Source of the DNA: an uncultured Gammaproteobacteria bacterium
GTDB lineage: Bacteria > Patescibacteriota > Microgenomatia > 2-02-FULL-39-11
Assembly (NCBI GenBank): GCA_964544585.1
Contig: CAZJBV010000001.1
Span: forward strand, 45,330 to 109,329
Reading direction: 5' to 3'
DNA length: 64,000 bases
Positions 10,728 to 36,105 of this stretch are shown here, piece after piece (the first letter of the stretch is position 1; every line of letters begins with the position of its first letter). The notes below the pieces were generated by a model. That model was not told the origin of the DNA and made no database searches. It saw only the letters and a program-made list of their open reading frames with translations. Both the position numbers and the translations under genes were made by a program.

Positions 10728-10743
10728 TTCAGGATAGTGGCAT
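10728..10743 (+). repeat. Intergenic repeat copy 3 (ttcaggatagtggcat)
   Basis: core GGATAGTGGCA, about 10 nt upstream of the -35 of the ATPase promoter (minus strand). Confidence 0.7.
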
Positions 10744-12265: not shown

Positions 12266-12330
12266 ATATTCCAGAATTAGTAAATATTACTACTAATTCT
12301 AGAACAAAATGGGTTAATTGTCAAGTTAGA

Positions 12331-16948: not shown

Positions 16949-18025
16949 TCAGACCTTGAAGTATTTAAGGTCTGACCCTGTTCTGACCCCTGTTCTGGCC
17001 CTGATGATGGCAATTTCGATTAGTTTCTTGAGAAATTGGGGATATGAAAATCCCGCTGTTTTTGCTGATCGCACTGCTCCATCTTCAGGGCCTATGCCTG
17101 GATTGACATTTATTTCCAAAAAATATGGCTTGTTTTTTTCATCAAGTCTGATATCAATTCTGGCGTAATCGCGGCAGCCGGATGAATTATACGCTTCTAG
17201 TGCATATTTTTTAATCTTTTTAATAATTTCATTATCTAGTTTTGCTGGGCAGATGCCGACCGTTTCATTATAATTTTCTGATTCTTCGATCCATTTTGCT
17301 TCAAAATCAACTATTTTCCATTTGCCTTTTTTTTCAAAAGTTGGGCCAAAAATTATTTCGGATATGGGAAGCATGATAGCATCTTTACCATTACCTACAA
17401 TTGTGACATTAAGTTCTCTGGTGTTGATGAATTTTTCCACCAGGACTGGTTCTCTATACTGTTGTAAAAGCTGCAATACTTTATGTTGTAATTGACTCTC
17501 GTTTGTAATTACGGCATCGGAATGGATTCCCAAACTGCAATCTTGGTAACCAGGTTTTACTATCAAAGGATATTTTAGATGACCATTTATGACTTTATCT
17601 TGTGGGGTAAAAACTTCATAAGCTGGGGTAGGAATTTTAAATTTCTGAAAAAGTTTTTTGGTGGCGATTTTATCTGTGGTGAGAATGATTGATTTATCAG
17701 AAGCTCCGGTATATGGCAAAGCTATTTTTTCTAATAATTTAGGGATTTCTTGCTCTGTTTTAGGGATTGAACCAATTCCGTAACAAAGATTAAAGAAAAA
17801 ATCTGTTTTATAAGTTAAGAGATCGGTATAATTTTTTTCATTTACTTCTAATAGTTCAACATTTAATTTTTCTTTTTGGAGTGTTTTGAATATGGCGTGG
17901 GCGGTTTTTACGGTATCGTCATCGGCGAGAATATCTTGGGGCGATCCTATGGATATACTTTTTACCTGATTATACAAAATGGTTATTTTGTATGAAGACA
18001 GATTGTGAGCAGGTGTTTGTATCAT
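16949..18025 (-). CDS. ATP-grasp ligase, D-alanine--D-alanine ligase family
   Basis: Ddl-like layout: N-domain, central PLIVKPGYQDCSLGI, C-terminal ATP-grasp YFLEINVNPG. Confidence 0.55.
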   Translation of the reverse strand: MIQTPAHNLSSYKITILYNQVKSISIGSPQDILADDDTVKTAHAIFKTLQKEKLNVELLEVNEKNYTDLLTYKTDFFFNLCYGIGSIPKTEQEIPKLLEKIALPYTGASDKSIILTTDKIATKKLFQKFKIPTPAYEVFTPQDKVINGHLKYPLIVKPGYQDCSLGIHSDAVITNESQLQHKVLQLLQQYREPVLVEKFINTRELNVTIVGNGKDAIMLPISEIIFGPTFEKKGKWKIVDFEAKWIEESENYNETVGICPAKLDNEIIKKIKKYALEAYNSSGCRDYARIDIRLDEKNKPYFLEINVNPGIGPEDGAVRSAKTAGFSYPQFLKKLIEIAIIRARTGVRTGSDLKYFKV

Positions 18026-18066
18026 TTTGAATCACAGGGAAAGAATAGATTTATTTTATTTAGTTG

Positions 18067-19449
18067 TCAAGGGCGAGAGGGATTACGTAGAGATTCGAGT
18101 TCCTCTTCGTAGATCTTCATGAGTGGTTTTGTTAAATCATAAGTGAGAGTTTTGGTAGTATGAATGCCGAAATAAATTTTGCGCAATTTCTTTTCTTTGT
18201 GCTTGGCGATTTTGAGAAATTTTTTGATAAAAAGATCCATTAGCGGACCTTTTACACCTTTTTGATAAGCCATGAGAAAGGCAAGCAATTGCTCGTCGCG
18301 ACCTATACCACTTTCGGCATAGGCACTATCTTTAACACCATCTCCATTAGAAAAAATTGTATATAATTTCTTTTTTTTATTAAGTAGCATATTTTCGGTA
18401 AAACCTACTCGCCTGGGATTTATACCTAGGGCGAGCATAAAAATATAAATCCTGGCGCATTTGGTGCATACTCCGCACCATCGTTTGGTCTTTGCCTGGT
18501 CCTCGTCGGCAAAACAGGACATTTGGTATTTGGCAATTTGAGGATATCGATAGTGAAGTATCTTCATAATAGCCAATTCGTGAATTGGTTCGACAAGAGA
18601 AGCAAAAATGGAATTTGATCCCATCACTTTGGCGATGGCATTGCTTGATAGGAGCCATTCGCAACTTTGTTCAAAAACGGGGTTGACGCGGTAACCATCT
18701 TCATCGGTAAATACTTCATTACAACTAGCCTCATTTGCCCAAAAAAGGTACTTACTGCGAGTACCGAAAATGTAAGGAATAAGAAGCAAAGTGTACTGGG
18801 TGAGAAGTAAATCCCATCCCCACCATTTGCCTGTTGTTTGCCGCAGCCATCCGGGGGTGACGGGAAAGATATTGACGTCGATATCGAATTCATCAAAAAA
18901 TCTTTGGGCAAGGCGATATTTGTGTCTATTTTCATAGGGACTTCTGGGTTCGCGGAAAAAAATTGGGTATGGTTCTATACTCAATTCTTTGGAGAGGGCA
19001 AATGTAAGTAAACTATCTTTGCCGAATGAAAAAGGAATGATTGATCTTTTGGTACTATTTCGATTGACATTTTTAAAACGTGCGTATCGAGGGCGTTTTC
19101 CAAACTCGATTTTAAAATGAGTATTATAAAGTTTTTTGAGAAGAGTCCCCATGGTGACGTTGCTTTCTGTGAGTGAGGTTTCGGGTAGAGAATAAACCAT
19201 ACCTTTGAAGAAAAATGATTCTGTTGGCGGCGGAGGAAAGTTATAGATAAGTTTTTTATGATTAGTGAGGCTAAGATGCATGGTCAAAAAATAAGTGACG
19301 GAGTCGGCAAAGTTTTGGCGGTAGACGTCAGGAAATTGCCTCCAAATGGATTGAGGATATGTCAGGAAGTAATCTTTTCTCCCGAGAGAAATTTCGATGC
19401 CATTGTGTAAAACTTTGCGACGGATGTGCAGTTCTCCGTTTTTGACCAT
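18067..19449 (-). CDS. PP-loop-like ATP pyrophosphatase superfamily protein with C-terminal Cys cluster (function unknown)
   Basis: SFGKDS (SGGxDS-like PP-loop) motif; C-terminal CFADEDQAKTKRWCGVCTKC cysteine cluster. Confidence 0.35.
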   Translation of the reverse strand: MVKNGELHIRRKVLHNGIEISLGRKDYFLTYPQSIWRQFPDVYRQNFADSVTYFLTMHLSLTNHKKLIYNFPPPPTESFFFKGMVYSLPETSLTESNVTMGTLLKKLYNTHFKIEFGKRPRYARFKNVNRNSTKRSIIPFSFGKDSLLTFALSKELSIEPYPIFFREPRSPYENRHKYRLAQRFFDEFDIDVNIFPVTPGWLRQTTGKWWGWDLLLTQYTLLLIPYIFGTRSKYLFWANEASCNEVFTDEDGYRVNPVFEQSCEWLLSSNAIAKVMGSNSIFASLVEPIHELAIMKILHYRYPQIAKYQMSCFADEDQAKTKRWCGVCTKCARIYIFMLALGINPRRVGFTENMLLNKKKKLYTIFSNGDGVKDSAYAESGIGRDEQLLAFLMAYQKGVKGPLMDLFIKKFLKIAKHKEKKLRKIYFGIHTTKTLTYDLTKPLMKIYEEELESLRNPSRP

Positions 19450-22090: not shown

Positions 22091-22420
22091 TTATTTTGTG
22101 CTAATTGCAATTCTAGAAAATATTAAAGTCAATTCTTGTGCTTCTTTCCAGAGAACTCTGCATTCATCTCTTACTTTATCGTCTGCTTTAACAATTAATC
22201 TGAGCCAGTATTTTGTCTCTCTTGCTTCTTTCTTACAAATAACAATTTTGTTTTTAAAATCTTTTTTACTTCCTGCACCGTTTGCTTCGAAATAGTTTGC
22301 TCCTATACTGGTTGCTGCTCTGACCAATTGATTAATAATCGGCGATGTAATAGATGAAGGTTTAACTTTCTTACACATTTCTATTACTCTTTCGGAAAAA
22401 TCGGCTGTTCTTTCTTCCAA
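22091..22420 (-). CDS. Four-helix-bundle protein (23S rRNA intervening-sequence protein family)
   Basis: Characteristic GANYFEANGAGSKKDFKNKIVICKKEARETKYWLRL segment; 109 aa. Confidence 0.7.
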   Translation of the reverse strand: MEERTADFSERVIEMCKKVKPSSITSPIINQLVRAATSIGANYFEANGAGSKKDFKNKIVICKKEARETKYWLRLIVKADDKVRDECRVLWKEAQELTLIFSRIAISTK

Positions 22421-22447: not shown

Positions 22448-24751
22448 TTAAATTACTAATCCTTTCATCTCTACGCTTCCACCACAGTATTTTTGAATAA
22501 TAGCGATTGTTTCGTCGAGAGATCTTTGGACTTTTTGCCGAGTGGCGTCATAAATTCCATCAAGATTTAAAATAACATTTTTCGTATCCAGGGTGACTGC
22601 GGTTCTTTTTGCATCTCGAAAATTAAAATCAATATTGTATCCGCCGATAGCATCAAAATAGGCAATTTCTTTTTCTGTGTAGGCGGTAGGTTTTTCGTCG
22701 CCTAAAAGATGGATTTCTTCTCCTTTTTTGGCAAATCTGATGATGGTCGGCAATTTCATTTTATCCAGATCAAAGGCGCCGACAGAGACTCTATGCTTCA
22801 TAACAATTAGATTGTAAGAATCGACGCAAGTATTTATGGTGTATAATCCTTTTTTAAGAGCAACCCGACGAAGAAGGGCTTCGGGAGAAGGACGACGTGA
22901 ATGCCAGTCGATTCCCGTCTCTTTATAGAGTCTTCTATAACTTATAATCTCCGGATATTTTCCAAGTTCTTCTGTGGTGAGGCCTTGAATTGAAGATAGA
23001 AATTCTTCTTTTTCTTTTTCTAATTCAGGGTTTGTTTTTTCTACTTTTATTCCTTTAATAATGGCGATGCCTATTGAGATCGATGGATATTTTTCTTTTA
23101 ATTTGGGATCGATGGAAAAAATATCCGGTCGAGAAATAGTTTTAATTGTTGATATTTTTTCTTTAGTTTTTTGTTGTTTATTCAGCGTTAATCGTTCGCT
23201 GATTACATCTTTGGGAAATTTATTGAGTAGCCAACCAGCTCTAGGTCCATAAGGTTTATCAAGTATTACTGTATACAATGCTTTAAAGGCATCTTGGTAA
23301 TTGATATTAATGGATTTAGTTAGCTGAAAAATTTCAGATTGCAACTTTTCAGGGTCTTTTGATTCTTGCCAAATTTTTGCCAGACCATTCAAAAATTTCC
23401 ATTGATTTTCAGATAGCGTAATTTCAGGAAATGATTTTATTGATATTTGATACTTATATTCGTTAGGAGCATATTTACTTAACCAAACAGTGGCATTGGT
23501 AAGTCGGTCCTGCAAAATATCATTTTCTTCATCTGTGAGTGAAGATCCTTTAATTTGAGCAAATCGGTCCCAGAGTTTAACGTTTGGAAGTTGTCTAAAA
23601 TTCGCTATATCTCGAAAGCGGGGAATAAAAAGATTAGGATTTTTTGGCGGAATGTCATCAATTTGAGATAATTCATAGGCACGGGAGAGGTCGGGGTCAC
23701 CGCTTTTATTATATGCTTGCCAGCAACGATCGTACTCGTCAAAAAGATCAGGGATAGCCATGGTTTCGACAGGATCAAACTCGATGGCCTGTCGGTAGTC
23801 TGTCCTTGTAAACATAAACCGGACTAGGTATGGTGGCATAATATCTGAAACTTCTTTTGCAGACACACCCATACCTTTACTGGATGACATTTTTTTACCG
23901 CCGATGAGGAAAAATTCGTGCGAAAACCCAAAAGGAGTAGGATAATCAATCACACGTTTACATATTTGTTCTGCAATATCATGCGAGCCTCCGGCGCCCA
24001 TATGGTCTTTACCCGCGCCTTCAATTGTCACGCCAATTACTTTCCATTTGACCGCCCATTCTACTTTCCAAGATAACTTTCCAACAAATTTTCCATTGTT
24101 GCTAAATGGGCTAATTTTACCTTCATACCCGCATCCCTTAGTCCAGTCGACGGCATCTTCTTTGCAGGTAAAATGAACGTTTTCACTATCCCATTTGTAG
24201 ACTCTGGTGGTAGACTCTTTACCGCATTTCGGACAAACTACTTGGAATGGATACCAATCAGGTTGGAGCGACTTTTTGTACATTTTTTCATAAATATCCC
24301 GAATAATATCAGCTTTATCCAGACAAATTTTAATATCCTTGTTCATTTTGCCTGATTTATATAAATCAGCACTCCAGATGATTTTTGGTTCCGATCCAAT
24401 TTTATTGAACACGTGTTTGAATTCCAAAGCAAAGTACTCGGCATAATTTTTCGCAGCTTTGGGATCAGGCGAGGGAATAGTAAATAATGGTTGCCCTAAA
24501 TATTTTTCCCATTTTTCTTTCTCCAGATAAATTGGCAAACCATCCATGGGATCCTGGTCTTCAAAAACATAGCTGAATGTCACTTTTTGTCCGGAGTCTT
24601 TTAAAGCGCGGTTTATTGAGTCGTGTACAACAACGCCCCGAAGTGAACCGACATGAATCCTGCCCGAAGGAGTCTTCATGTCGTCAACCCAGTAGGGAGT
24701 GTATTTACCAGAATCTATTATCTTTTTTGCAATTTTATCGGCCCAGAACAT
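22448..24751 (-). CDS. lysS: Class I lysyl-tRNA synthetase fused to a C-terminal B3/4-like domain
   Basis: HIGH-like PSGRIHVGSLRG and KMSKS-like KMSSSKG; N-terminal catalytic body is about 530 aa (class I LysRS-sized) with a ~230-aa extra C-terminal domain resembling PheT B3/4. Confidence 0.7.
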   Translation of the reverse strand: MFWADKIAKKIIDSGKYTPYWVDDMKTPSGRIHVGSLRGVVVHDSINRALKDSGQKVTFSYVFEDQDPMDGLPIYLEKEKWEKYLGQPLFTIPSPDPKAAKNYAEYFALEFKHVFNKIGSEPKIIWSADLYKSGKMNKDIKICLDKADIIRDIYEKMYKKSLQPDWYPFQVVCPKCGKESTTRVYKWDSENVHFTCKEDAVDWTKGCGYEGKISPFSNNGKFVGKLSWKVEWAVKWKVIGVTIEGAGKDHMGAGGSHDIAEQICKRVIDYPTPFGFSHEFFLIGGKKMSSSKGMGVSAKEVSDIMPPYLVRFMFTRTDYRQAIEFDPVETMAIPDLFDEYDRCWQAYNKSGDPDLSRAYELSQIDDIPPKNPNLFIPRFRDIANFRQLPNVKLWDRFAQIKGSSLTDEENDILQDRLTNATVWLSKYAPNEYKYQISIKSFPEITLSENQWKFLNGLAKIWQESKDPEKLQSEIFQLTKSININYQDAFKALYTVILDKPYGPRAGWLLNKFPKDVISERLTLNKQQKTKEKISTIKTISRPDIFSIDPKLKEKYPSISIGIAIIKGIKVEKTNPELEKEKEEFLSSIQGLTTEELGKYPEIISYRRLYKETGIDWHSRRPSPEALLRRVALKKGLYTINTCVDSYNLIVMKHRVSVGAFDLDKMKLPTIIRFAKKGEEIHLLGDEKPTAYTEKEIAYFDAIGGYNIDFNFRDAKRTAVTLDTKNVILNLDGIYDATRQKVQRSLDETIAIIQKYCGGSVEMKGLVI

Positions 24752-25406
24752 AGACCTTTCCCTTTTTTGCTTTATTCCAATTATACGATAATATGGGCGC
24801 AGAGCATACTAGTGTCATGTTTTTATCGTGATAGTAATGCAGAGAAAAATAATCTGAAAAGCTTGGGTATTGGTTAAGAAAATAAAAACTTTTGCCGTCT
24901 GATAATCCTATATTCATGCCTTCAATTGAACGTGAATGGGAAATGAGAGTTTTGTGGACAGAATCTAAAGCCTGACTTAATGATTTTTTTTGCTTTTTAA
25001 ATAATTGAATAAGAGAAAAAATTTTTTGTGCTCCGATTTTTCCGAAAAGGGGAAGATTTAGGCGAACGCCTTTTAGCATTCCATTGAAAACAAAACAGAG
25101 ACCATCGTCTATATACGGTTGATTGTATTCAATAATCCCCTTTTGGTCGGGAAAGCCTGCGCTCCTGGCGTGGACAATAAGGATTTTAGTTTCAGGCAAT
25201 TGTGGGAAAAGTTTATTATCTTTCCAGATGGGATTAAGTGATTTTTTGGTGATCCATTTTCCCGATGTTTCCCAAGCTACTCCCCAACCGTCATTCTGTA
25301 AATCTCCGTCTGGTGTGCGGCTTTTTTGGCACATTTGGGAAAATGCAGTTAAAAAATGCTGCGGATTAAATTTCCTTTTTGATTTTATGAGAAGGAAACG
25401 GCACAT
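24735..25406 (-). CDS. Class II (Ntn) glutamine amidotransferase-like protein (YafJ/EgtC-like)
   Basis: Starts MCRF (Cys2 nucleophile), DGWGVAW and HARSAG motifs of GATase class II; overlaps lysS start by 17 nt and lies last in the lysine operon. Confidence 0.6.
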   Translation of the reverse strand: MCRFLLIKSKRKFNPQHFLTAFSQMCQKSRTPDGDLQNDGWGVAWETSGKWITKKSLNPIWKDNKLFPQLPETKILIVHARSAGFPDQKGIIEYNQPYIDDGLCFVFNGMLKGVRLNLPLFGKIGAQKIFSLIQLFKKQKKSLSQALDSVHKTLISHSRSIEGMNIGLSDGKSFYFLNQYPSFSDYFSLHYYHDKNMTLVCSAPILSYNWNKAKKGKVYVLGR

Positions 25407-25407: not shown

Positions 25408-26553
25408 TTAATTTTTAAAAATTTCTTTTAGAGCGTTTATGACCATGTCTACTTCTTTTTTAGTTATCAAGTACGGAGGAAGAAAACGGACTATATTTGA
25501 TCCGGCTGGAATGGCAATAATATTTTTCTCTTGCAAAGCTTTTAGTAACCAGGTAGCATTTTCTTTCAATTGGATTCCAAGCATAAGACCAATACCTCTT
25601 GCCTCTAAAATTTTGTCTGAATCAATTTTTTTCAGTTGGGATAAAAAATATTCTCCAGTTTTTTTAATATGACTAAAGATATCTTTATTACCAAATTCAT
25701 CTAGAGTTGTAACAACACCGGCGCAGGCTAAGGGATTGCCACCAAAAGTAGTTGTATGAAGATGCATGGGAATTTTTTGCGCTATTTGTTCTGTCACGAG
25801 CGTTGCACCAATTGGTATTCCACCACCCAATCCTTTTCCAAGACAAAGAATGTCGGGTGAGATACCAAGTTGCTCTGATGCCAGGAATGTACTTGTTCTT
25901 CCTACTCCTGTTTGAATTTCATCAACAATGAGTAAAATATTGTTTTCCCGGCAGAAAGACTGAAGGGAGTGGAAGTATTCTTTTGACGCTAATTTGATTC
26001 CTCCTTCTCCTTGAATGGGTTCTGTAATAATTCCGGCGATATCTTTCGGTGCCATTTTTTTGAGAGCATTCACTTCACCAAAAGGAATATGAGTAAAATT
26101 CCAAAGAAGCGGAAGAAAGGGTACACGATATTTTTCTCCTCCCGTTGCTGAAAGAGCACCTAATGTTTTTCCATGATAGCCATGTTCCATAGCTATAAAA
26201 TGTTTTTTTCCAGTTGCAAGACAGGCAAATTTTAGAGCTGCCTCTATGGCTTCTGCGCCAGAATTTGAGAAAAATACTTTTGTTAATTTGCCCCCACAAA
26301 TAGTAATTAATTTCTCTGCAGCCTGATTTCTCATTTCGTTGTTAAATGAACCATGAAGATCAATAAGTTTAGATATTTGATTTACTAGTGCATCGTTTAT
26401 CTTTTGATATCCATAGCCAAAAATATTTACACCATAATTACTCCCGAGATCTAGATATTGTTTCCTGCTTGTGTCTATAAGATACATTCCTTTTCCTTTG
26501 ATAAAGGTAATACCCCTATTGGGGTATGAGGCGACTAAATGATTATTTAACAT
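25408..26553 (-). CDS. lysJ: Class III aminotransferase (LysJ/ArgD-type acetylornithine / LysW-gamma-lysine aminotransferase)
   Basis: PLP aminotransferase class III motifs (DEIQTG, catalytic Lys region LCLGKGLGGG). Confidence 0.7.
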   Translation of the reverse strand: MLNNHLVASYPNRGITFIKGKGMYLIDTSRKQYLDLGSNYGVNIFGYGYQKINDALVNQISKLIDLHGSFNNEMRNQAAEKLITICGGKLTKVFFSNSGAEAIEAALKFACLATGKKHFIAMEHGYHGKTLGALSATGGEKYRVPFLPLLWNFTHIPFGEVNALKKMAPKDIAGIITEPIQGEGGIKLASKEYFHSLQSFCRENNILLIVDEIQTGVGRTSTFLASEQLGISPDILCLGKGLGGGIPIGATLVTEQIAQKIPMHLHTTTFGGNPLACAGVVTTLDEFGNKDIFSHIKKTGEYFLSQLKKIDSDKILEARGIGLMLGIQLKENATWLLKALQEKNIIAIPAGSNIVRFLPPYLITKKEVDMVINALKEIFKN

Positions 26554-27341
26554 ATGGTTGTACCTCCACCTTTTAAGGCATTTGTAATAGGATGGGGAAT
26601 TCTGCCATCGCCGAAATAAATTTTTTTTGCTCCGAAATGGATTGCTTCCTTGACGCCGAGAAGTTTTTTTCTCATTCTGTCTTCTGTTTTTTTTATATAT
26701 TGATCTAACTGGTCAAATTTGATTGTTTTAATCATTGATTTTTTATCATCTCTATCCTCTAGTAAACCCGGGGCTTCAAAGAGGATGACTATTTTTTTTA
26801 TATTGAGATCGCGGACCATGACTGCGGCAGCTCTATCATTATCGACATTGATGAGTAGTCCATCAGCGGTTATTGCCGGAATGGTGATAACAGGAATAAA
26901 GCCGGATTTTATAAGCAAGGCTATCAGAGTTTTATTAACTGAAATTACATTTCCGGTGAGAGAGTTTCTTATTATTTTGGTTTTATTGCCTACTTTTGCA
27001 TAAATTACGTCTTTTTGTTTGCCAAGCCAGGTTTTGCCATCGGCTCCGGAAAGTCCAACTGCATTTAGGCCATGTTTTTGCAGTGTAGCGACAATTTTTT
27101 TGTTGATGAGACCACTATAGACCATAGTAAGTAACTCTATGGTTTGGCTATCAGTGTAGCGGCTGGTTTGGCCTGTGGGAGAGGTAATTATTTTTTCTTT
27201 TAACTTTAGTTTTTCGGTAATATCTTTCATCCAGGCATTTGCACCGTGCACTATCACATATTCTTCAGAAATGCTTTGCAAATCCGCGGCAATGTAATCC
27301 CAGTTGATAGCTTTTCCGCCACCAATTTTAATGATAATCAT
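26547..27341 (-). CDS. lysZ: Amino acid kinase LysZ/ArgB-type
   Basis: AAK fold: IIKIGG N-terminus, HGAN, 264 aa; within lys cluster. Confidence 0.7.
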   Translation of the reverse strand: MIIIKIGGGKAINWDYIAADLQSISEEYVIVHGANAWMKDITEKLKLKEKIITSPTGQTSRYTDSQTIELLTMVYSGLINKKIVATLQKHGLNAVGLSGADGKTWLGKQKDVIYAKVGNKTKIIRNSLTGNVISVNKTLIALLIKSGFIPVITIPAITADGLLINVDNDRAAAVMVRDLNIKKIVILFEAPGLLEDRDDKKSMIKTIKFDQLDQYIKKTEDRMRKKLLGVKEAIHFGAKKIYFGDGRIPHPITNALKGGGTTIC

Positions 27342-28350
27342 GACTTCTTTTTAAATTTTTTATAACTTCTTTTGTTACTTCTGTGGTTGTTGCATTGCCC
27401 CCGATATCCGGTGTGGTGCAGTTGTTTTTTATTGTTTTTATGATGGCTTCTTTTATTGCTTGGGAATACTTTTCCAGTTTCAAATATTCCAGCATCAGAC
27501 ATACTGCAAAAAAAGTGGCGAGAGGATTGATGCGGTTTTTCCCTTTGTATTTTGGCGCCGATCCGTGTACTGGTTCAAAAAGAGCATATTTGTTGCCTAT
27601 ATTTGCAGAAGCTGCTACTCCCAATCCTCCAACCAATGCTGCAGCAACATCAGATAAAATATCACCAAACATGTTGGTGGTAACAATAATGTCAAATGTT
27701 TCCGGTTTTTTTACCAAGTTCATTGCACATGAGTCGACCAACATATCATCAAAATAAATAGAAGAATATATTGGAGCAATTTTTTGTGCCATTGCCAAAA
27801 ATAGACCGTCAGTTAAACGCAATACATTAGATTTATGTACGACAGTCACTTTCTTTCGTTTTTGGTTGGTTGCTAAACGAAAGGCAGATTCAATGATGCG
27901 TTTACTTGCGTATGTAGTAATTACTCTTTCTGCTATAGCTCCTTCTTTTGTCTTTTTTTCTCTTCCTATATAGAGATCTTCGGTATTTTCTCTGACGATT
28001 GTAAAATTAATGTCCTGCCGGGTCCCTGGTAATGGCAGTGAAAAAAAAGGTCGGATATTAGCATAAAGATTTAAGTCTCTCCTCAATTTTACAATGGGGC
28101 TGAAATAATTTTTTATATGGGGAGGACTAGTAACGGCTCCAAAGAGTATGGCATCAGCCATTTTACATGTATCGATCGTATGAGAAGGTAAAGGAATACC
28201 GCAATTTAAATAGCAATCATATCCGGCTCTCGCTTCAACAAATCTAAAAGGTATAGGTAATTGCTCCAATAACTGAAGAGATTGGTCGATAACTTCCGGC
28301 CCTATACCATCTCCTTTGATGACACAAATAGTGTATTTATTAGTTTTCAT
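27328..28350 (-). CDS. Homoisocitrate/isopropylmalate dehydrogenase family enzyme (putative homoisocitrate dehydrogenase)
   Basis: ICVIKGDGIGPEV N-terminus, HGSAPKYKGK; 340 aa; between homoaconitase and lysZ. Confidence 0.7.
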   Translation of the reverse strand: MKTNKYTICVIKGDGIGPEVIDQSLQLLEQLPIPFRFVEARAGYDCYLNCGIPLPSHTIDTCKMADAILFGAVTSPPHIKNYFSPIVKLRRDLNLYANIRPFFSLPLPGTRQDINFTIVRENTEDLYIGREKKTKEGAIAERVITTYASKRIIESAFRLATNQKRKKVTVVHKSNVLRLTDGLFLAMAQKIAPIYSSIYFDDMLVDSCAMNLVKKPETFDIIVTTNMFGDILSDVAAALVGGLGVAASANIGNKYALFEPVHGSAPKYKGKNRINPLATFFAVCLMLEYLKLEKYSQAIKEAIIKTIKNNCTTPDIGGNATTTEVTKEVIKNLKRSHDYH

Positions 28351-28808
28351 TGAAATGTAATTATATTTTTTAAACTTTTTAAGCCATTTTTTTGTAAATA
28401 GGGAATAATTCCACCCTCATGGTATAAACGGAGCATCAGAGGAGGAATCAGCACTTTTCTTTCTATGTATAAATTTAAGTCATCTTTTTCATCAATTTTT
28501 GAAGTATCTACCTCGATTAGAAGCATGCCTATATTTAAACAATTTCGGTAAAAGATTCTGGCAAATGATTTTGCCAGGATGGCTTTCACTCCTGCGTACT
28601 TAAGCGCAATTGCCGCTGTCTCCCGGGAACTGCCGCAGCCGAAATTTTCTCCCGCAATAATAAAATCACCTTTTTTAACTTTTTTTCTGAATTCGGGCCT
28701 ATATTCTATAAAAGCAATTTCGGCCAATTTTTTAGCGTCGGTTGTGATGTTGTATCGACCGGGAGTGATAAGGTCAGTATTGATATTGTCGCCAAACATC
28801 CAATTCAT
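28347..28808 (-). CDS. Homoaconitase/3-isopropylmalate dehydratase small subunit (LeuD-like)
   Basis: MNWMFGDNINTDLITPGRY N-terminus typical of LeuD/LysU small subunit. Confidence 0.75.
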   Translation of the reverse strand: MNWMFGDNINTDLITPGRYNITTDAKKLAEIAFIEYRPEFRKKVKKGDFIIAGENFGCGSSRETAAIALKYAGVKAILAKSFARIFYRNCLNIGMLLIEVDTSKIDEKDDLNLYIERKVLIPPLMLRLYHEGGIIPYLQKNGLKSLKNIITFQ

Positions 28809-30082
28809 GATAAATACCTCCTTGGATCTGTAATATATCCAGTAATTGCACTAGCTGCTGCTGTTGCCGGGGACGCCAGATATATTAGAGCTTTGGCGCT
28901 TCCCATGCGGCCGGTAAAGTTTCTATTACTTGTCGATACGCAAATCTCACCATCGGCTAGAACTCCCTGATGCCGTCCGAGACACGGACCACAACCGGGA
29001 TTGGTTATAATCGCTCCAAGTTTGGTGAAAAATTCAATGTATCCTTTATGGAGAGCTTGAATATAGACCAACTTGGAAGCTGGAGTGATAATGACGCGAA
29101 GGCCGGGACGAAGTTTTTCTCCCTTCCACATGATATAGACTATATCGAGATCCTCAATACGACAATTGGTACAGGAGCCTATAAAAACTTGGTCAAGTTT
29201 TATCTTTTCTTTTTCTACTTCAATGACGGTAACGACATTGTCGATATCAGGAGGACGGGCAATAAGAGGTTTCAAATCAGCGACATTAAATGACATTACT
29301 TTTTCATAGTCTGCATCTTTATCACTTTTTAGTTCATTTTCAGAAAAGGCATAATCCCGACTATTTTTCTCTAAATACTCTTTTGTATTTTTGTCTGGTG
29401 GTACGATCGCGGCTTTGGCTCCCATTTCGGCAGACATATTGGTAAGGGTCAACCTATTGGGAACGTTAAAGCTTGATACTACTTCTCCACCATACTCTAA
29501 TACTTTATAGTTACCCCCGTCTGGTCCAATAACTTTTGCCACAGAGAGGATGACGTCTTTAGAAAAGACGCCTTTTTTAAGTCGTCCGTTTATTTCTATT
29601 TTGATTGTTTTTGGTACACGAAACCAGCATTTTCCTGTGGCCATAGCTATCGCTGCATCTGTAGAGCCTACTCCGATAGTTAAAGCGCCTACACCCCCTC
29701 CTGTGGGAGTATGAGAATCGGCACCTAATACCAGATTTCCGGGATTAATGAATCGTTCAGACATAATTTGGTGGCAGACTCCTTCTGTAGTAATTGGTAT
29801 CCTTTGCTCGTCGGCAAATTTGCGAATTGCTGCTTGAAGCGTAGCTACCTGGGTATTCGGTGCAGGAAACGCATGATCAAAAGGAATAAATATTTTCTTT
29901 TTATTCCAAACTTTTTTGGCAATGGCATAGAAAGGTTCTAGCGCCCACGCACAAGTCGTATCATGCGCCATAACTAAATCGAGATCTGCCAAGACAAAGT
30001 CTCCCGCATGTACTTTTTTTCGGGCATGATTAGAAAATATTTTTTCGGCAATAGTTTGTCCCATATTATTGTAAGTTTTCAA
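28805..30082 (-). CDS. Homoaconitase/3-isopropylmalate dehydratase large subunit (aconitase family, archaeal-type LeuC/LysT)
   Basis: MGQTIAEKIFSNH...LVMAHDTT and Fe-S ligand Cys region GSCTN / GCGPCLG. Confidence 0.8.
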   Translation of the reverse strand: MKTYNNMGQTIAEKIFSNHARKKVHAGDFVLADLDLVMAHDTTCAWALEPFYAIAKKVWNKKKIFIPFDHAFPAPNTQVATLQAAIRKFADEQRIPITTEGVCHQIMSERFINPGNLVLGADSHTPTGGGVGALTIGVGSTDAAIAMATGKCWFRVPKTIKIEINGRLKKGVFSKDVILSVAKVIGPDGGNYKVLEYGGEVVSSFNVPNRLTLTNMSAEMGAKAAIVPPDKNTKEYLEKNSRDYAFSENELKSDKDADYEKVMSFNVADLKPLIARPPDIDNVVTVIEVEKEKIKLDQVFIGSCTNCRIEDLDIVYIMWKGEKLRPGLRVIITPASKLVYIQALHKGYIEFFTKLGAIITNPGCGPCLGRHQGVLADGEICVSTSNRNFTGRMGSAKALIYLASPATAAASAITGYITDPRRYLS

Positions 30083-31307
30083 TCCTATTCATCAATATTT
30101 GTTGTTTCATAGGTAATTTTTCTAACTTAAATTCTTCTACGACTTTCTTTAAAAGTACTTCCGGACGGTTTCTTTTCGTAACTCTATGTATATGTTTTTT
30201 AAATAATTTTGCAATTACTTTGGCTTGATCGGGTGTAACATCATAATAGTCAATTTCGCGTAAATAATAATAAATGAGATTCCATCCGCTGAGTGGACCT
30301 AGTAATAACTGGTTTCTAGTTACACCAAATTTTTGTAAATCATGTGCTTCATAAAGTCCATGGTGATTCATTACTGCTTTTTGATGCACTCCTGCGGTAT
30401 GTGTGCGATTGGTAAGAGACACCGGTTCGTTGTAGGGAACATGCCATTTGAGGATTGCGCCCATCAGTACATTAAGAGGATATGCGTATTCTAAATTATA
30501 ATTTTTGCAAAGTTGCCTTTGTTCAAAAAATGAATTGAGAAGAATTCCGGTAAGAGAAGTAATTCCTGATCTTTCAGCCATGCCCCAGATTGATGTATCT
30601 ATATAAGAAACACCAGATTGAATAGCGGTAAGAGCGTTTATTAGAGATAGACCTCGGTCATTGTGGAAGTGGCCCTCTAACATGACTTTTGGGTAGCGTG
30701 TTTTTAAAGCGGTGACATGATGTTTTACTAAGTCTGGGGTGGCACAACCTACGGTATCGGGCATACCAAACATATCAACATATTTATAAATAGTATCGTA
30801 AATACGAAATGTATCTTTTAAAGGAGTCCGGAAACAATCTTCGACACTAAATCGTATTGAAAGGTGTGGATATTTTAAGCGGACTGCAATAATAGTGTCT
30901 TTAATCATTTTTGCAATTGTATCAAAAGAATATCCATGGCTATATTTTTGGGCTCTTTCGGCGATACCCATGTATATTTGTAGTCCATCAAAACCAGCTT
31001 GGATGGCTTCTTCTATATCTTTAGGGTGACAGCGTACATGTGCGTAACAGGAAATTTTTTCTTGCACATTTTGTTGAATAAATTCTCTTAATCGTAAGAA
31101 GTCGTTTTGTTCAGCTTTACTTACGACAGGCGAAAAAAATTCGAATCGGCGAACTCCTAATTGGATGAGACCGTTTAGGAGTACTTTTTTATCGGCAAAA
31201 GAAAAACGATATTTTCCACTATCAAACATTAGTGGGGATTGTTGCCCATCTCGAAATGTTGTATCTATAAAGCCTTTAAATGTATTTAGGTGATTATTTT
31301 TTTTCAT
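30066..31307 (-). CDS. Homocitrate synthase / 2-isopropylmalate synthase family (LeuA/NifV DRE-TIM)
   Basis: TFRDGQQ substrate motif and HFHNDRGLSL...GMAERSG metal-binding HxH motif. Confidence 0.7.
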   Translation of the reverse strand: MKKNNHLNTFKGFIDTTFRDGQQSPLMFDSGKYRFSFADKKVLLNGLIQLGVRRFEFFSPVVSKAEQNDFLRLREFIQQNVQEKISCYAHVRCHPKDIEEAIQAGFDGLQIYMGIAERAQKYSHGYSFDTIAKMIKDTIIAVRLKYPHLSIRFSVEDCFRTPLKDTFRIYDTIYKYVDMFGMPDTVGCATPDLVKHHVTALKTRYPKVMLEGHFHNDRGLSLINALTAIQSGVSYIDTSIWGMAERSGITSLTGILLNSFFEQRQLCKNYNLEYAYPLNVLMGAILKWHVPYNEPVSLTNRTHTAGVHQKAVMNHHGLYEAHDLQKFGVTRNQLLLGPLSGWNLIYYYLREIDYYDVTPDQAKVIAKLFKKHIHRVTKRNRPEVLLKKVVEEFKLEKLPMKQQILMNRIENLQ

Positions 31308-31309: not shown

Positions 31310-32377
31310 TTATATGGGGTGAAGTCCGGGAAACTCTAATCCCGTAGTTTCAGGAAACCCATACATAATGTTCATGGCCTGAATTGCCTGGCCGGCAGTA
31401 CCTTTGCCTAGATTATCTATGGCGCCGATTGCAACTAGGCGATTTTCTCTTTCGGAGAGAGCAAAACCGATGTCGCAGTAGTTTGTACCTGTGAGGATTT
31501 TTGGCTCGGGAAAGCGATAGTTGCCTGTTTCTTTTTTGACAAGTCTTACAAATGGTTCGTTTTCGTAAGCTTGGCGATAAGCTTTCCAGACATCAAGTTC
31601 TTTTACGCCATGATGTGGTATGGCGTGGATTGTAACGAGGAGGCCGCGAACTATTTCAATGGTGGTAGCAGTGACAGAGACTTTTAGGTTTTTGACATAT
31701 GGCGATAATTCCTGTTCTATTTCAGCTGTGTGACGATGATTTATTGGCTTGTAAGTTCTGACTACGCCATGACGTTCAGGATGATGTGAAGAATAGGAAG
31801 GAGTATTCCCCCCTTGGGAACTGCTCATTTTGGCATCGATGATAATATCCGGCTTGATAAGTTTGTATTTGACAAGAGGATAAAGAGTTAAGATGGAGAC
31901 AGTAGCCTCACAGCCACCACATGAAACAAACGATGTTTTTTTTATTTTATGGCGATTGAGTTCGGCGATACCGTAGACAAATTTATTTAAAAGGGATGGA
32001 TATAAGTGAGTCGTTTTATACCAATCAGCAAAAATGCTTTTATCGTGCAAGCGAAAATCAGCGCCGAGGTCTATAATTTTTCTGGCACTTTTTTGGGCAA
32101 GGCGCATATATTCCATGGATTTGCCGTTGGGAAGAGCCAGAAATATGAGGTCGGTTTTTTTAATATCTTTAAATCGACAAAAAGTAAGATCTGTTATTTT
32201 TCTTAAGTTAGGATGAACTTCGCCGACTGGCAAACCTGCAAATTTGCGGGAAGTGACATATTTTAATTCAATGTAAGGATGAAAGAGGAGAATGCGAAGT
32301 AACTCTCCGCCTGCATACCCGGACCCGCCAATTATAGAAACAGATATTTTCCTGTTCATGATATTTTTTCCAGACAA
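31310..32377 (-). CDS. lysY: N-acetyl-gamma-glutamyl-phosphate / LysW-aminoadipyl-phosphate reductase (ArgC/LysY)
   Basis: VSIIGGSGYAGGELLR NAD-binding N-terminus, catalytic Cys region; 355 aa. Confidence 0.8.
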   Translation of the reverse strand: MSGKNIMNRKISVSIIGGSGYAGGELLRILLFHPYIELKYVTSRKFAGLPVGEVHPNLRKITDLTFCRFKDIKKTDLIFLALPNGKSMEYMRLAQKSARKIIDLGADFRLHDKSIFADWYKTTHLYPSLLNKFVYGIAELNRHKIKKTSFVSCGGCEATVSILTLYPLVKYKLIKPDIIIDAKMSSSQGGNTPSYSSHHPERHGVVRTYKPINHRHTAEIEQELSPYVKNLKVSVTATTIEIVRGLLVTIHAIPHHGVKELDVWKAYRQAYENEPFVRLVKKETGNYRFPEPKILTGTNYCDIGFALSERENRLVAIGAIDNLGKGTAGQAIQAMNIMYGFPETTGLEFPGLHPI

Positions 32378-33204
32378 TAATTAATAATTTCTCCTGCAAT
32401 GTTTACGTTTGTGACTCTTTGAACGTTTTTAAACTCCATGGTGTGATTGACTTCGTTTATGAGGAGTCCATCGTTTGTTTCAAAGACGTCTATTCCCAAT
32501 ACTCCCTCGCCTATTGCGGCAATAGTTTTTTGGGCGATATCCTCTAAATCTTTGGTAATTTTGCAGTTAAGAGGCAAGGCTCCGCGAGCTGTATTAGTGA
32601 TCCAATGATCACTCTTTCTATATATTGCAGCTATTGCATTACGTCCAATAACATTTAAGCGTATATCTCTTCCGTGCTTTTCTATATATTGCTGCATATA
32701 GAAGGCGTGGTGTGATGGTCCTCCTAAGACTGTTTTACTTTCTAAAATGGACTCGAGACTATCTAAGTCGTTTATTTTGGCTATAAGCCTCCCCCACGAT
32801 CCTGAAACCGGTTTTATAACAACAGGGAATCCCCCCCACGCTTCGACTGCAATCTTTGCTTGACGCTCACTAAATACCATACAAAATTTGGGTGTGGCGA
32901 CTTTATGTTTCCAAAGAGCTAAAGAGGTAATGAATTTATTCTCGCAGACTTGGGCGACAGAAAGAGAGTTTACACAAGGAATATTTAAACTGGCAAAAAA
33001 TTCCAGGGCGTGCATTCCTTTGACGGTTGAGACGCAACGCTCAAGAACGACGTCAAAGCCATAAGAATTATCCGGGTCGAAAATCTGTTCCCGGACATCA
33101 ATAATGTCAAGTGAAACTCTATTTTTTTTAGCTGCCTCGATGATGAGTTTTTCGTCGCCTCTTATGGTTGTATGTAAAAGGCCAATTTTTTTATTTTTTA
33201 GCAT
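32356..33204 (-). CDS. lysX: RimK-type ATP-grasp ligase LysX (LysW--alpha-aminoadipate ligase)
   Basis: 282 aa ATP-grasp; immediately downstream of lysW. Confidence 0.75.
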   Translation of the reverse strand: MLKNKKIGLLHTTIRGDEKLIIEAAKKNRVSLDIIDVREQIFDPDNSYGFDVVLERCVSTVKGMHALEFFASLNIPCVNSLSVAQVCENKFITSLALWKHKVATPKFCMVFSERQAKIAVEAWGGFPVVIKPVSGSWGRLIAKINDLDSLESILESKTVLGGPSHHAFYMQQYIEKHGRDIRLNVIGRNAIAAIYRKSDHWITNTARGALPLNCKITKDLEDIAQKTIAAIGEGVLGIDVFETNDGLLINEVNHTMEFKNVQRVTNVNIAGEIINYCLEKIS

Positions 33205-33207: not shown

Positions 33208-33393
33208 TTATTGCCCCCAATCTTCTTCAACTTTTGGAGCTTCTTTTAAATTAAATTTACTACTTTTGTTGTCGACTGAGACTACTTCAAGCTTTGAACC
33301 ACAATCCTTACAGGAAATAATTTCCGAAACTTCAACGGATGTAATCTTTATATTTGCGTCACATATGGGACAACTACCTAGCATAAAAATCAC
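33208..33393 (-). CDS. lysW: Amino-group carrier protein LysW
   Basis: 61 aa; zinc ribbon CPICD...CKDCG; acidic C-terminus EEDWGQ (LysW EDWGE-like tail); strong RBS AAGGAGGTG. Confidence 0.8.
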   Translation of the reverse strand: MIFMLGSCPICDANIKITSVEVSEIISCKDCGSKLEVVSVDNKSSKFNLKEAPKVEEDWGQ

Positions 33394-34256: not shown

Positions 34257-34285
34257 TTGTCAAGACAATCTTGAGGCTATATAAT
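34257..34285 (+). promoter_or_regulatory. Putative sigma70-like promoter for tRNA-Glu (TTGTCA-17-TATAAT)
   Basis: ggcTTGTCAagacaatcttgaggctaTATAATacc about 28 nt upstream of tRNA 5' end. Confidence 0.35.
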
Positions 34286-35915: not shown

Positions 35916-36105
35916 GAGCTAAGGAGTACTATACTTTTTCCTTCAAAATTTTCAATATGACTTAATGAATCAAACATAAGCAAAAAATTCTTTTTGTTCG
36001 TTTGCACGTAAAAAATGCTGATGCATTTTTCAGTGTAAAGGCAAAGTTTCCCCCACTATTTAGTGGGGGACAAATAACATCGCAAGGGGCAATTAATTAA
36101 AATTC

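What the first reader, a model, noticed from the sequence alone, without database searches (positions are those of the whole stretch)
24735..25406. Class II (Ntn) glutamine-amidotransferase-like gene at the position where LysK is expected
Sequence: no M20-type LysK deacylase and no LysN aminotransferase are seen in the cluster. Instead, a 223-aa protein starting MCR… with a Cys2 nucleophile, DGWG and HxRxA motifs (YafJ/EgtC-like) is the last biosynthetic gene. It overlaps lysS. Established knowledge: EgtC-type enzymes hydrolyse gamma-glutamyl amide bonds, and LysW-gamma-Lys is a gamma-glutamyl isopeptide. Inference: this protein could be a non-orthologous replacement that releases lysine from LysW.
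Basis: inference. Interest (0 to 1): 0.55.

Follow-up and report, generated by a model that had tools for sequence, protein, structure and literature searches.

The report
New lysine-releasing enzyme for LysW pathway
A small cysteine amidohydrolase sits in many bacterial lysine-synthesis operons exactly where the usual last enzyme (LysK) belongs; it most likely frees lysine from its carrier protein LysW, and probably also activates LysW versions that end in glutamine instead of the required glutamate.

Summary
ORF 24735-25406 (-) encodes a 223-aa protein that begins MCR. Its predicted fold is a stand-alone class-II (Ntn) amidohydrolase, closest to EgtC. It lies 1 nt after lysJ and overlaps lysS by 17 nt, at the end of a complete LysW-type aminoadipate lysine cluster with no M20 LysK.

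In 72 of 76 informative species genomes from several phyla, the homolog lies directly after lysJ. In a second clade it lies between lysY and lysZ. Three canonical control clusters have M20 LysK in that same slot.

I also found something new: LysW in this window ends in Gln (EEDWGQ), not the Glu that LysX must activate. A blind metagenome scan for Gln-ended LysW returned 71 loci. All 22 with enough downstream DNA carry this gene, and none carries LysK. Glu and Gln swap repeatedly between close relatives.

Best model: a LysW gamma-glutamyl amidohydrolase that releases lysine and also deamidates pro-LysW, as Dop does for Pup. This is not shown biochemically, and a LysK elsewhere in the genome cannot be excluded. 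No description was found in the searchable literature.

The parts
24735..25406 (-). Stand-alone Ntn (class-II GATase-like) cysteine amidohydrolase, 223 aa. Proposed LysW gamma-glutamyl amidohydrolase: a LysK substitute and LysW-Gln deamidase.
   Evidence: ORF. Pfam GATase_4 22.6 bits. AF2 pLDDT 95.6. Foldseek top hit EgtC 4zfl, TM 0.72. Conserved position after lysJ in 72 of 76 informative genomes.
25401..25403 (-). Codon of Cys2, the predicted N-terminal nucleophile after Met removal.
   Evidence: Sequence. Cys in 100 of 101 unique family members; the remaining sequence has a gap at this column.
25408..26553 (-). lysJ ([LysW]-aminoadipate semialdehyde aminotransferase, class III). Its stop lies 1 nt before the amidohydrolase start.
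   Evidence: Pfam Aminotran_3 335 bits. NCBIfam argD/LysJ models.
26547..27341 (-). lysZ ([LysW]-aminoadipate kinase).
   Evidence: NF010659, 271 bits, above the cut-off of 223.
27328..28350 (-). Homoisocitrate dehydrogenase.
   Evidence: Pfam Iso_dh. AksF and LEU3_arch models.
28347..28808 (-). Homoaconitase small subunit (hacB).
   Evidence: TIGR02087, 165 bits.
28805..30082 (-). Homoaconitase large subunit (hacA).
   Evidence: TIGR01343 hacA_fam, 510 bits.
30066..31307 (-). Homocitrate synthase.
   Evidence: HMGL-like plus HCS_D2. TIGR02146 is the best NCBIfam model.
31310..32377 (-). lysY ([LysW]-aminoadipyl-phosphate reductase, ArgC family).
   Evidence: TIGR01850, 379 bits.
32356..33204 (-). 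lysX (ATP-grasp ligase that joins aminoadipate to the LysW C-terminal gamma-carboxylate).
   Evidence: TIGR02144 LysX_arch, 306 bits, above the cut-off of 275.6.
33208..33393 (-). lysW carrier protein. The likely true start is the ATG at 33384, giving 58 aa. It has a zinc ribbon (CPICD...CKDC) and an acidic tail ending EEDWGQ.
   Evidence: TIGR01206 lysW, 61.5 bits, above the cut-off of 53.2. Translation.
33211..33213 (-). Last sense codon of lysW: CAA (Gln), where canonical LysW has GAA or GAG (Glu).
   Evidence: DNA read ...GAT TGG GGG CAA TAA. The same Gln ending occurs in 17 of 57 homologous clusters with a visible LysW and in 71 metagenome loci.
22448..24751 (-). lysS: class-I lysyl-tRNA synthetase fused to a C-terminal B3_4 domain. 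It overlaps the amidohydrolase gene by 17 nt, so it is translationally coupled and consumes the pathway's product.
   Evidence: Pfam tRNA-synt_1f 290 bits plus B3_4 78 bits. A LysRS (class I in most loci, class II in L001) follows the gene in many related loci.

Best explanation
The gene encodes a stand-alone N-terminal-cysteine (Ntn) amidohydrolase that acts on the gamma-carboxyl amide of the C-terminal residue of the carrier protein LysW. Proposed mechanism (inferred): after the initiator Met is removed, Cys2 attacks the gamma-carbonyl and forms a gamma-glutamyl thioester with LysW. The Asn108-Gly109 oxyanion hole and Arg81, which would hold the free alpha-carboxylate of the terminal residue, assist this step. 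The leaving group departs and water regenerates LysW-Glu. If the leaving group is lysine (substrate LysW-gamma-Lys), this is the last step of the aminoadipate pathway, and the enzyme replaces the M20 metallohydrolase LysK. If the leaving group is ammonia (newly made LysW ending in Gln), the same chemistry turns an inactive pro-carrier into LysW-Glu, which LysX can load. The free lysine is handed to LysRS, whose gene is translationally coupled downstream. Shown here: the gene, its fold class, its invariant catalytic residues, its operon position, the absence of LysK from the clusters, and the Gln-ended LysW with its strict association with this gene. Inferred: the substrate and both reactions.
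For: Fold and catalytic apparatus. The AF2 model has pLDDT 95.6. The closest solved structures are EgtC (4zfl, 4zfj, 4zfk; TM 0.72, E 3e-12), then the stand-alone GATase-like proteins 1te5 and 3mdn and the GlmS and PurF glutaminase domains. The profile alignment to 3mdn superposes DGWG, HxR and NG. Cys2, Arg81 and Asn108-Gly109 are invariant in 101 unique sequences.

Operon position. The gene is immediately after lysJ in 72 of 76 informative species genomes: Microgenomates (Gottesman-, Roizman-, Levy-, Davies-, Shapiro-, Pace- and Dojkabacteria), Aminicenantes and other Acidobacteriota, Coprothermobacterota and Dehalococcoidia. The median lysJ-to-gene gap is 4 nt. A second clade (Arenicellales, Ignavibacteria, Acidobacteriota) has it between lysY and lysZ. 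So the link survives rearrangement of the operon.

In-situ displacement. Control clusters with the same order lysW-X-Y-Z-J carry M20 LysK in that slot. A tblastn search with that LysK finds nothing in the window or in loci L001-L210.

LysW-Gln. The window's LysW ends EEDWGQ. Among gene-selected clusters, 40 end in E and 17 in Q. In a scan for EEDWGQ-stop that was blind to this gene, all 22 LysW-Gln loci reaching far enough contain the gene, and these form about 10 groups at 60-70% identity. There are at least 14 E/Q switches on the family tree, and discordant pairs reach 88.5% identity.

The gene is kept with intact catalytic residues where LysW ends in Glu, so it must do more than deamidate.

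Precedent. Dop both deamidates Pup-Gln and cleaves the Pup isopeptide (PMC8223512).
Against: There is no biochemical evidence. Whole genomes could not be searched, so a LysK elsewhere is not excluded. An ArgE/DapE-like M20 family is common in Roizman- and Dojkabacteria, and in one locus (L061) it sits just upstream of a lysW-Gln cluster that also has this gene. Eight or more homologs (four Tectimicrobiota/Entotheonella, Chloroflexi L003/L004, and some at contig ends) are not next to lys genes. The Q-to-gene association is partly phylogenetic: there are about 10 independent groups, not 22. Two Gln-ended LysW in a Deinococcus-like sample had contigs too short to check. The Ntn glutaminase-type enzymes listed as closest relatives here (EgtC, PurF and GlmS glutaminase domains) act on small molecules; a protein-bound gamma-glutamyl substrate would be new as far as I know. 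I could not establish how the peptide-linked alpha-amino group of the terminal residue is accommodated. Family pI is only moderately basic (median 8.6, range 5.3-10.3).
Confidence: 0.6

Rival explanations
1. The enzyme is only a LysW-Gln deamidase, a maturation factor. Lysine release is done by an M20 or other hydrolase encoded elsewhere.
For: Every LysW-Gln locus that could be checked has the gene. An M20 ArgE/DapE-like deacylase family exists in Microgenomates. In L061 it lies next to a lysW-Gln cluster that also has the gene.
Against: About 70% of gene-selected clusters have LysW ending in Glu (40 E against 17 Q), yet they keep the gene with all catalytic residues invariant. A pure deamidase would have no substrate there. 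The gene occupies the LysK slot. The Microgenomates M20 scores 72 bits against the LysK model (cut-off 363). It sits as GNAT-like/M20/LysRS in genomes whose syntenic slot lacks the whole lys cluster, so its function does not depend on LysW. It is absent within 10 kb in 79 of 80 genomes.
Confidence: 0.13
2. It is an ordinary free-glutamine glutaminase that supplies glutamate (the amino donor for LysJ and LysN) or ammonia to the pathway.
For: It has the class-II GATase fold with the complete glutaminase catalytic set. Databases call it 'glutamine amidotransferase'.
Against: There is no synthase partner or fused domain in any locus. This reading does not explain why the gene sits in the LysK slot while LysK is missing. 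It also does not explain why Gln-ended LysW occurs only with it. It is below threshold for every curated GATase or EgtC model.
Confidence: 0.08
3. It is a proofreading or recycling hydrolase that strips wrongly loaded amino acids (for example LysW-gamma-Glu) or dead-end adducts from LysW, and is not the productive last step.
For: The chemistry is the same as in the main model. Operon membership is compatible with this.
Against: The pathway would still lack its final hydrolase in about 100 clusters. Editing enzymes are rarely this universally and tightly coupled: the median gap is 4 nt and the gene overlaps lysS.
Confidence: 0.07
4. It is a passenger gene with an unrelated housekeeping role (YafJ-like) that merely lies beside the lys operon.
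For: A few homologs are not near lys genes.
Against: The linkage is conserved across at least six phyla and two different gene orders, with translational coupling. The gene is absent where the lys cluster is absent from the same syntenic slot.
Confidence: 0.03

Closest known systems
EgtC (gamma-glutamyl hercynylcysteine sulfoxide hydrolase, ergothioneine pathway; PDB 4ZFJ, 4ZFK, 4ZFL)
   Same: It is the closest solved fold (TM 0.72). Both are stand-alone proteins of about 220-230 aa that start MC(R) and share the DG(W/F)G, HxR and NG motifs. EgtC hydrolyses a gamma-glutamyl amide whose leaving group is an amino-acid derivative, which is the chemistry proposed here.
   Different: Identity is only 16-17%. 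The protein scores 36.5 bits against the EgtC equivalog cut-off of 218.65. No egt genes are nearby. The proposed substrate is the C-terminal residue of a protein, with its alpha-amino group in a peptide bond, not a free gamma-glutamyl compound.
LysK ([LysW]-lysine hydrolase, EC 3.5.1.130; M20 ArgE/DapE family)
   Same: It occupies the same operon slot, directly after lysJ. It is proposed to perform the same reaction and pathway step.
   Different: The fold and mechanism are unrelated: a metal-dependent M20 enzyme against a cysteine Ntn hydrolase. There is no sequence similarity. A metallohydrolase is not expected to deamidate LysW-Gln; this is my inference.
Dop, the deamidase and depupylase of the Pup system
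   Same: This is a functional analogy. One enzyme removes either ammonia (carrier or modifier ending in Gln) or a lysine-linked partner from the gamma-carboxyl of a C-terminal Glu/Gln of a small acidic protein. The Glu and Gln forms of the small protein alternate between lineages (PMC8223512).
   Different: Dop has a glutamine-synthetase-like fold and depends on ATP/phosphate, so it is not homologous. Pup tags proteins for degradation, whereas LysW is a biosynthetic carrier.
Pfam GATase_4 / YafJ-type stand-alone class-II glutamine amidotransferase-like proteins (PDB 1TE5, 3MDN)
   Same: They share the superfamily, size and N-terminal Cys. This is the only Pfam match, and they are structural neighbours.
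   Different: The match is just below Pfam's gathering score (22.6 against 23). The YafJ-type proteins matched here carry only generic or predicted names in the PDB hits. The family studied here forms a compact separate group (122 clusters at E<1e-30) with its own invariant residues, for example G125-x-[QE]-K128.
Glutaminase domains of PurF and GlmS
   Same: They share the Ntn fold, Cys1, the Arg that binds the alpha-carboxylate, and the Asn-Gly oxyanion hole.
   Different: Those domains are fused to synthase domains and channel ammonia. Here there is no partner. The helix between the NG motif and the next conserved segment appears to be missing (DSSP). I could not identify the counterpart of their alpha-amino-binding Asp.

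Membership tests
Class-II (Ntn) glutamine amidotransferase-like hydrolases | Cys directly after the initiator Met, acting as the N-terminal nucleophile | tested here: met
   MCR.... Cys2 is present in 100 of 101 unique homologs; the remaining sequence has a gap at this column.
Class-II (Ntn) glutamine amidotransferase-like hydrolases | Four-layer alpha-beta-beta-alpha Ntn fold | tested here: met
   AF2 model with pLDDT 95.6. Foldseek probability is 1.00 to EgtC, 1te5, 3mdn, GlmS and PurF, with TM 0.63-0.72.
Class-II (Ntn) glutamine amidotransferase-like hydrolases | Asn-Gly oxyanion hole and an Arg that binds the substrate alpha-carboxylate | tested here: met
   The HMM alignment to 3mdn pairs H79-A-R81 with H-V-R and N108-G109 with N-G. 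All are invariant in the family.
Class-II (Ntn) glutamine amidotransferase-like hydrolases | Asp that binds the free alpha-ammonium of glutamine (Asp127 in PurF, Asp123 in GlmS; from memory) | tested here: inconclusive
   The segment at the start of helix 125-138 is G125-[AS]-[QE]-K128 with no invariant acid. No residue-level structural alignment was available.
Pfam GATase_4 (PF13230) | Score at or above the gathering threshold | tested here: not met
   22.6 bits against 23.0. This is borderline. Many homologs have no precomputed Pfam hit.
EgtC (TIGR03442 equivalog) | Score above the curated cut-off and an egt gene neighbourhood | tested here: not met
   36.5 bits against 218.65. The neighbours are lys genes, not egtA, egtB or egtD.
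True glutamine amidotransferase (glutaminase plus synthase) | A fused or adjacent acceptor (synthase) domain that receives ammonia | tested here: not met
   It is a single domain of 223 aa. No candidate partner appears in about 100 loci.
LysK / [LysW]-lysine hydrolase (M20, NF003367) | M20 metallopeptidase homology | tested here: not met
   No M20 hit for this protein. A bona fide LysK scores 420 bits on NF003367 and finds nothing in the window.
LysK / [LysW]-lysine hydrolase (M20, NF003367) | Encoded directly after lysJ in lysW-X-Y-Z-J clusters | tested here: met
   Window. 72 of 76 genomes. LysK holds this slot in the controls.
LysK / [LysW]-lysine hydrolase (M20, NF003367) | Hydrolyses LysW-gamma-Lys to LysW plus lysine | not testable with these tools
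   This needs an enzyme assay.
LysW (amino-group carrier protein) aminoadipate lysine pathway | LysW, LysX, LysZ, LysY and LysJ present together with HCS, HacAB and HICDH | tested here: met
   All were identified. LysW, LysX, LysZ and LysY score above the curated cut-offs of their models; LysJ, HCS and HICDH were assigned from family-level hits that lie below the equivalog cut-offs.
LysW (amino-group carrier protein) aminoadipate lysine pathway | LysW ends in Glu, whose gamma-carboxylate is the attachment site | tested here: not met
   The window's LysW ends EEDWGQ. The attachment residue in characterised LysW is a C-terminal Glu (E53 in T. kodakarensis; PMC12998189).
Dop-type deamidase/depupylase | Homology to the Dop/PafA glutamine-synthetase-like fold | tested here: not met
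   The fold is Ntn, not GS-like. The resemblance is functional only.

The most novel reading that the evidence does not exclude
LysW is made in many lineages as an inactive pro-carrier ending in glutamine. A single Ntn cysteine amidohydrolase both matures it (Gln to Glu) and completes each biosynthetic cycle by cleaving the LysW-gamma-lysine isopeptide through a covalent LysW-enzyme thioester. This would be a biosynthetic counterpart of Dop and Pup, the first Ntn glutaminase-type enzyme I know of that acts on a protein C-terminus, and a second, mechanistically unrelated solution to the last step of prokaryotic aminoadipate lysine (and possibly ornithine) synthesis. It is spread across CPR bacteria, Acidobacteriota, Ignavibacteria and marine Gammaproteobacteria.
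Probability: 0.5. Interest if true: 0.8.

Novelty: new variant of a known kind. Interest (0 to 1): 0.72.

Why it matters
- It would fill the missing last step of LysW-dependent lysine synthesis in a large group of organisms where pathway-annotation tools would probably score the route as incomplete. These include CPR/Microgenomates, usually described as unable to make amino acids, and also Aminicenantes, Ignavibacteria and marine Arenicellales.
- It would add a second, unrelated enzyme class for EC 3.5.1.130-type chemistry.
- It would reveal a carrier protein made in a pro-form (C-terminal Gln) that needs deamidation, paralleling Pup and Dop.
- It would extend the substrate range of Ntn glutaminase-type enzymes to a protein-bound gamma-glutamyl group.
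- Every element can be tested directly with recombinant LysW-Gln, LysW-gamma-Lys and a C2A control.

Tried and rejected
- Sequence searches of the PDB with the family profile and with the single protein gave only a marginal 3mdn hit and noise. No residue-level alignment to EgtC was obtained, so the fate of the alpha-amino-binding Asp stays open.
- A tblastn search of LysW against plasmids gave only six hits. It was useful only for supplying a genuine Deinococcus LysW/LysK cluster.
- The LysW control search returned only 35 proteins: 33 end in Glu and 2 in Gln. The two Gln contigs (787 and 1045 bp) are too short to show context, and BLAST against my LysW set did not place them.
- The M20 lead: a regex plus jackhmmer found one M20 in 80 genome loci (L061). 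I followed it with my last homolog search. The family is widespread in Roizman- and Dojkabacteria, but it is DapE/ArgE-like. It sits next to lysS in loci without any lys cluster. I therefore rejected it as the general LysK of these organisms, without excluding it for L061.
- The Entotheonella context was uninformative: luciferase-like monooxygenases, MsrA and an ABC transporter.
- A basic surface that would bind acidic LysW: family pI is only moderately basic and variable, so I gave this no weight.
- A GAT-linker-LysW fusion model was considered and not attempted.
- A transamidase role (loading aminoadipate from LysW-Gln without ATP) was considered and set aside, because LysX is present in every cluster that shows the region downstream of lysW.


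Full report
**1. The observation**

Its ATG lies 1 nt after the stop of the upstream aminotransferase gene. Its 3' end overlaps the ATG of lysS by 17 nt.

The surrounding minus-strand genes form a complete LysW-type aminoadipate (AAA) lysine cluster:
- lysW 33208-33393
- lysX 32356-33204
- lysY 31310-32377
- homocitrate synthase 30066-31307
- hacA 28805-30082 and hacB 28347-28808
- homoisocitrate dehydrogenase 27328-28350
- lysZ 26547-27341
- lysJ 25408-26553
- the ORF
- lysS, a class-I LysRS fused to a B3_4 domain, 22448-24751

LysW, LysX, LysZ and LysY score above the curated NCBIfam cut-offs. LysJ, homocitrate synthase and homoisocitrate dehydrogenase rest on family-level hits below the equivalog cut-offs.

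No M20 peptidase was found among the 37 window ORFs scanned with Pfam, which cover most ORFs of 200 aa or more. A tblastn search with a bona fide LysK finds nothing in the window.

**2. What the protein is**

Curated models barely see it. Pfam GATase_4 scores 22.6 bits against a cut-off of 23. The EgtC equivalog scores 36.5 bits against 218.65.

It nevertheless belongs to a compact, well-conserved family:
- 229 homologs at 44-57% identity.
- In an exhaustive profile search, 122 clusters at 50% identity have E<1e-30 and 276 have E<1e-10.

An AlphaFold model built on 30 homologs is very confident (pLDDT 95.6, pTM 0.92). Its nearest solved structures are:
- the ergothioneine amidohydrolase EgtC (TM 0.72, 16-17% identity);
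- the stand-alone GATase-like proteins 1TE5 and 3MDN;
- the glutaminase domains of GlmS and PurF.

A profile alignment to 3MDN superposes the DGWG, HxR and NG motifs. In 101 unique family members from all loci gathered here, these residues are invariant or nearly so: Cys2, Arg3, Gly40-Trp41-Gly42, His79, Arg81, Asn108-Gly109, Gly125, Lys128, Asn165 and Ser202.

It is therefore an active-looking, single-domain Ntn cysteine amidohydrolase. It is not an EgtC ortholog, and it is not a true amidotransferase, because no synthase partner exists in any locus.

**3. Genomic context elsewhere**

A scan of one genome per GTDB species returned 80 loci, which I annotated offline.
- In 72 loci the gene lies directly downstream of lysJ, in lysW-X-Y-(HCS-hacAB-HICDH)-Z-J-gene.
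- Four more loci sit at contig ends.
- Only four (Entotheonella/Tectimicrobiota) have 10 kb of upstream DNA with no lys genes.

The hosts are Microgenomates (Gottesman-, Roizman-, Levy-, Davies-, Shapiro-, Pace- and Dojkabacteria), Aminicenantes and other Acidobacteriota, Coprothermobacterota and Dehalococcoidia. The median gap between lysJ and the gene is 4 nt, and 57 of 83 gaps are 10 nt or less. A lysyl-tRNA synthetase follows in many loci. It is class I in most and class II in L001.

**4. The LysK slot**

I fetched three canonical clusters as controls:
- a Deinococcus replicon with an annotated [LysW]-lysine hydrolase, which scores 420 bits on NF003367;
- two metagenomic clusters, one from a Blastocatellia MAG.

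All three have lysW-X-Y-Z-J followed immediately by an M20 peptidase. In all three LysW ends in Glu. The new gene therefore sits precisely where LysK sits. This is a textbook in-situ non-orthologous displacement. The Deinococcus LysK finds no homolog in the window or in loci L001-L210.

**5.

LysW in this window ends EEDWGQ-stop (GAT TGG GGG CAA TAA). LysX attaches aminoadipate to the gamma-carboxylate of the C-terminal Glu (E53 in T. kodakarensis; PMC12998189). A Gln there cannot be activated unless it is first deamidated.

Among the gene-selected genome loci with a visible LysW, 40 end in Glu and 17 in Gln.

To test the link without bias, I scanned the metagenome collection for the DNA pattern encoding EEDWGQ-stop.
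- Of 120 stretches, 71 are genuine LysW-Gln genes.
- All 22 that extend far enough downstream contain a homolog of this gene, as do all 21 with at least 3.5 kb downstream.
- None contains a LysK homolog.
- These 21-22 genes form about 10 groups at 60-70% identity.

Most of them belong to a second clade with the order lysW-X-Y-gene-Z-J (motifs QGHGWG and GRIGAEK). This clade is found in Arenicellales (Gammaproteobacteria), Ignavibacteria and Acidobacteriota. Databases label the gene only 'hypothetical' or 'glutamine amidotransferase'. What follows lysJ there is PEPCK, a LysR regulator and similar genes, not a hydrolase.

On a neighbour-joining tree of the enzyme, the Glu/Gln state changes at least 14 times. 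Discordant pairs are as close as 88.5% identical (L022 Gln against L026 Glu). The change needs a single G-to-C or C-to-G substitution.

Frequent neutral flipping of a residue that is chemically essential in its Glu form implies that a deamidating activity is always present in these lineages. A Gln-amide hydrolase encoded in the same operon is the obvious source.

**6. Mechanism proposed**

This section is inference. Cys2 attacks the gamma-carbonyl of LysW's terminal residue, and a gamma-glutamyl thioester forms. The leaving group is lysine (from LysW-gamma-Lys) or ammonia (from LysW-Gln). Water then regenerates LysW-Glu. Arg81 would hold the terminal alpha-carboxylate, and Asn108-Gly109 would form the oxyanion hole.

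The same enzyme would therefore both replace LysK and mature pro-LysW. This is what Dop does for Pup: it deamidates Pup-Gln and cleaves the isopeptide, two chemically equivalent reactions, while Pup alternates between Gln and Glu endings among actinobacteria (PMC8223512).

About 70% of the clusters have LysW-Glu yet keep the gene with an intact active site. This argues that deamidation alone cannot be its job.

**7. The main rival: a LysK elsewhere**

I could not search whole genomes. One of the 80 genome loci (L061, Roizmanbacteria) has an M20 gene upstream of its lysW-Gln cluster. Its family is widespread in Roizman- and Dojkabacteria. Several points argue against it being LysK:
- It is DapE/ArgE-like, scoring 72 bits on the LysK model against a cut-off of 363.
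- In L212 it forms GreA / GNAT-like / M20 / LysRS. This is the same syntenic slot that holds the lys cluster in the window, but here with no lysW-J genes and no copy of the amidohydrolase.
- In L213 two M20 genes precede a class-II LysRS.

This looks like LysW-independent lysine salvage feeding LysRS. If anything, it suggests that the gene just upstream of lysS supplies lysine. It does not exclude an M20 acting as LysK in L061 or elsewhere.

**8. Comparison, membership and novelty**

- The protein works like EgtC in chemistry, like LysK in pathway role and like Dop in dual logic.
- It is a member of the class-II Ntn amidohydrolase superfamily only.
- It fails the membership tests for EgtC, for LysK and, marginally, for Pfam GATase_4.
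- Four full-text searches found nothing that links LysW with a GATase, Ntn or EgtC-like enzyme or with a Gln terminus.

I rate it a new variant of a known kind: a known pathway and a known reaction, with a new enzyme class and a new pro-carrier feature.

**9. Confidence**

- About 0.9 that the gene is a functional component of the LysW pathway.
- About 0.6 for the full model (LysK substitute plus deamidase).

The remainder is split among the rivals listed.

Noticed in passing
window 22448-24751 (-); also L006 12493-14793, L212 11124-13418: The class-I lysyl-tRNA synthetase carries a C-terminal B3_4 domain (the fold of the PheRS beta-subunit editing/tRNA-binding module), giving about 765 aa. 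The fusion recurs in several Microgenomates, while other relatives have an unfused LysRS of about 490 aa or a class-II LysRS in the same position.
   Followed up: partly
L212 8974-13418; L213 10001-14437; L061 3463-5611: In Roizman- and Dojkabacteria that lack the lys cluster at this syntenic slot, an ArgE/DapE-like M20 deacylase lies immediately upstream of lysS. In L212 and L061 a GNAT-like protein of about 350 aa precedes it. This may be a lysine-salvage module, such as deacylation of an N-acyl-lysine. The family has about 100 clusters at 45% identity or more.
   Followed up: partly
L061 5608-5808 (-): A degenerate LysW-like zinc-ribbon ORF (…CPVC…CDEC…AREEED-stop, lacking the WG[EQ] end) lies antisense between the M20 gene and the real lysW-Gln. 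It may be a decayed second carrier gene.
   Followed up: no
window 34260-40810: tRNA-Glu(CTC) at 34313-34391 (+) is overlapped by the 3' end of a large serine recombinase ORF (34260-35915, -). Next come a 1202-aa protein and a 209-aa protein with no Pfam match (36570-40810). This is probably an integrated element, possibly a defence island, inserted at the tRNA just beyond greA and lysW.
   Followed up: partly
window 3913-8014: A serine-biosynthesis group: a class-V aminotransferase (SerC-like, 3913-4992) and a 639-aa fusion of a HAD phosphatase, D-2-hydroxyacid dehydrogenase and ACT domain (SerB-SerA-like, 4993-6912). A second isocitrate/isopropylmalate-type dehydrogenase (6926-8014, +) lies beside them. 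This is unusual biosynthetic capacity for a CPR-type genome.
   Followed up: no
window 9318-13512: An AbiEii-type nucleotidyltransferase toxin (10743-11597) with an upstream 223-aa partner that has no Pfam hit (11594-12265). Two AAA_14/DUF4143 ATPases flank the pair.
   Followed up: no
window 16949-19449; L001 12752-15225: A D-Ala-D-Ala-ligase-like ATP-grasp gene is paired with a 460-487-aa protein with no Pfam match. The pair is conserved near the lys/lysS/secA region in Gottesmanbacteria.
   Followed up: no
L092, L099, L115, L161, L182 and others (order lysW-X-Y-gene-Z-J): Marine Gammaproteobacteria (Arenicellales) carry a LysW-type carrier operon with no homocitrate synthase or homoaconitase genes in the locus. 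It is unclear whether it makes lysine or ornithine/arginine. A carrier-protein route in Gammaproteobacteria seems unusual to me.
   Followed up: no
window 22091-22420 (-): A protein of the '23S rRNA-intervening sequence protein' family (four-helix bundle, PF05635) lies just downstream of lysS.
   Followed up: no
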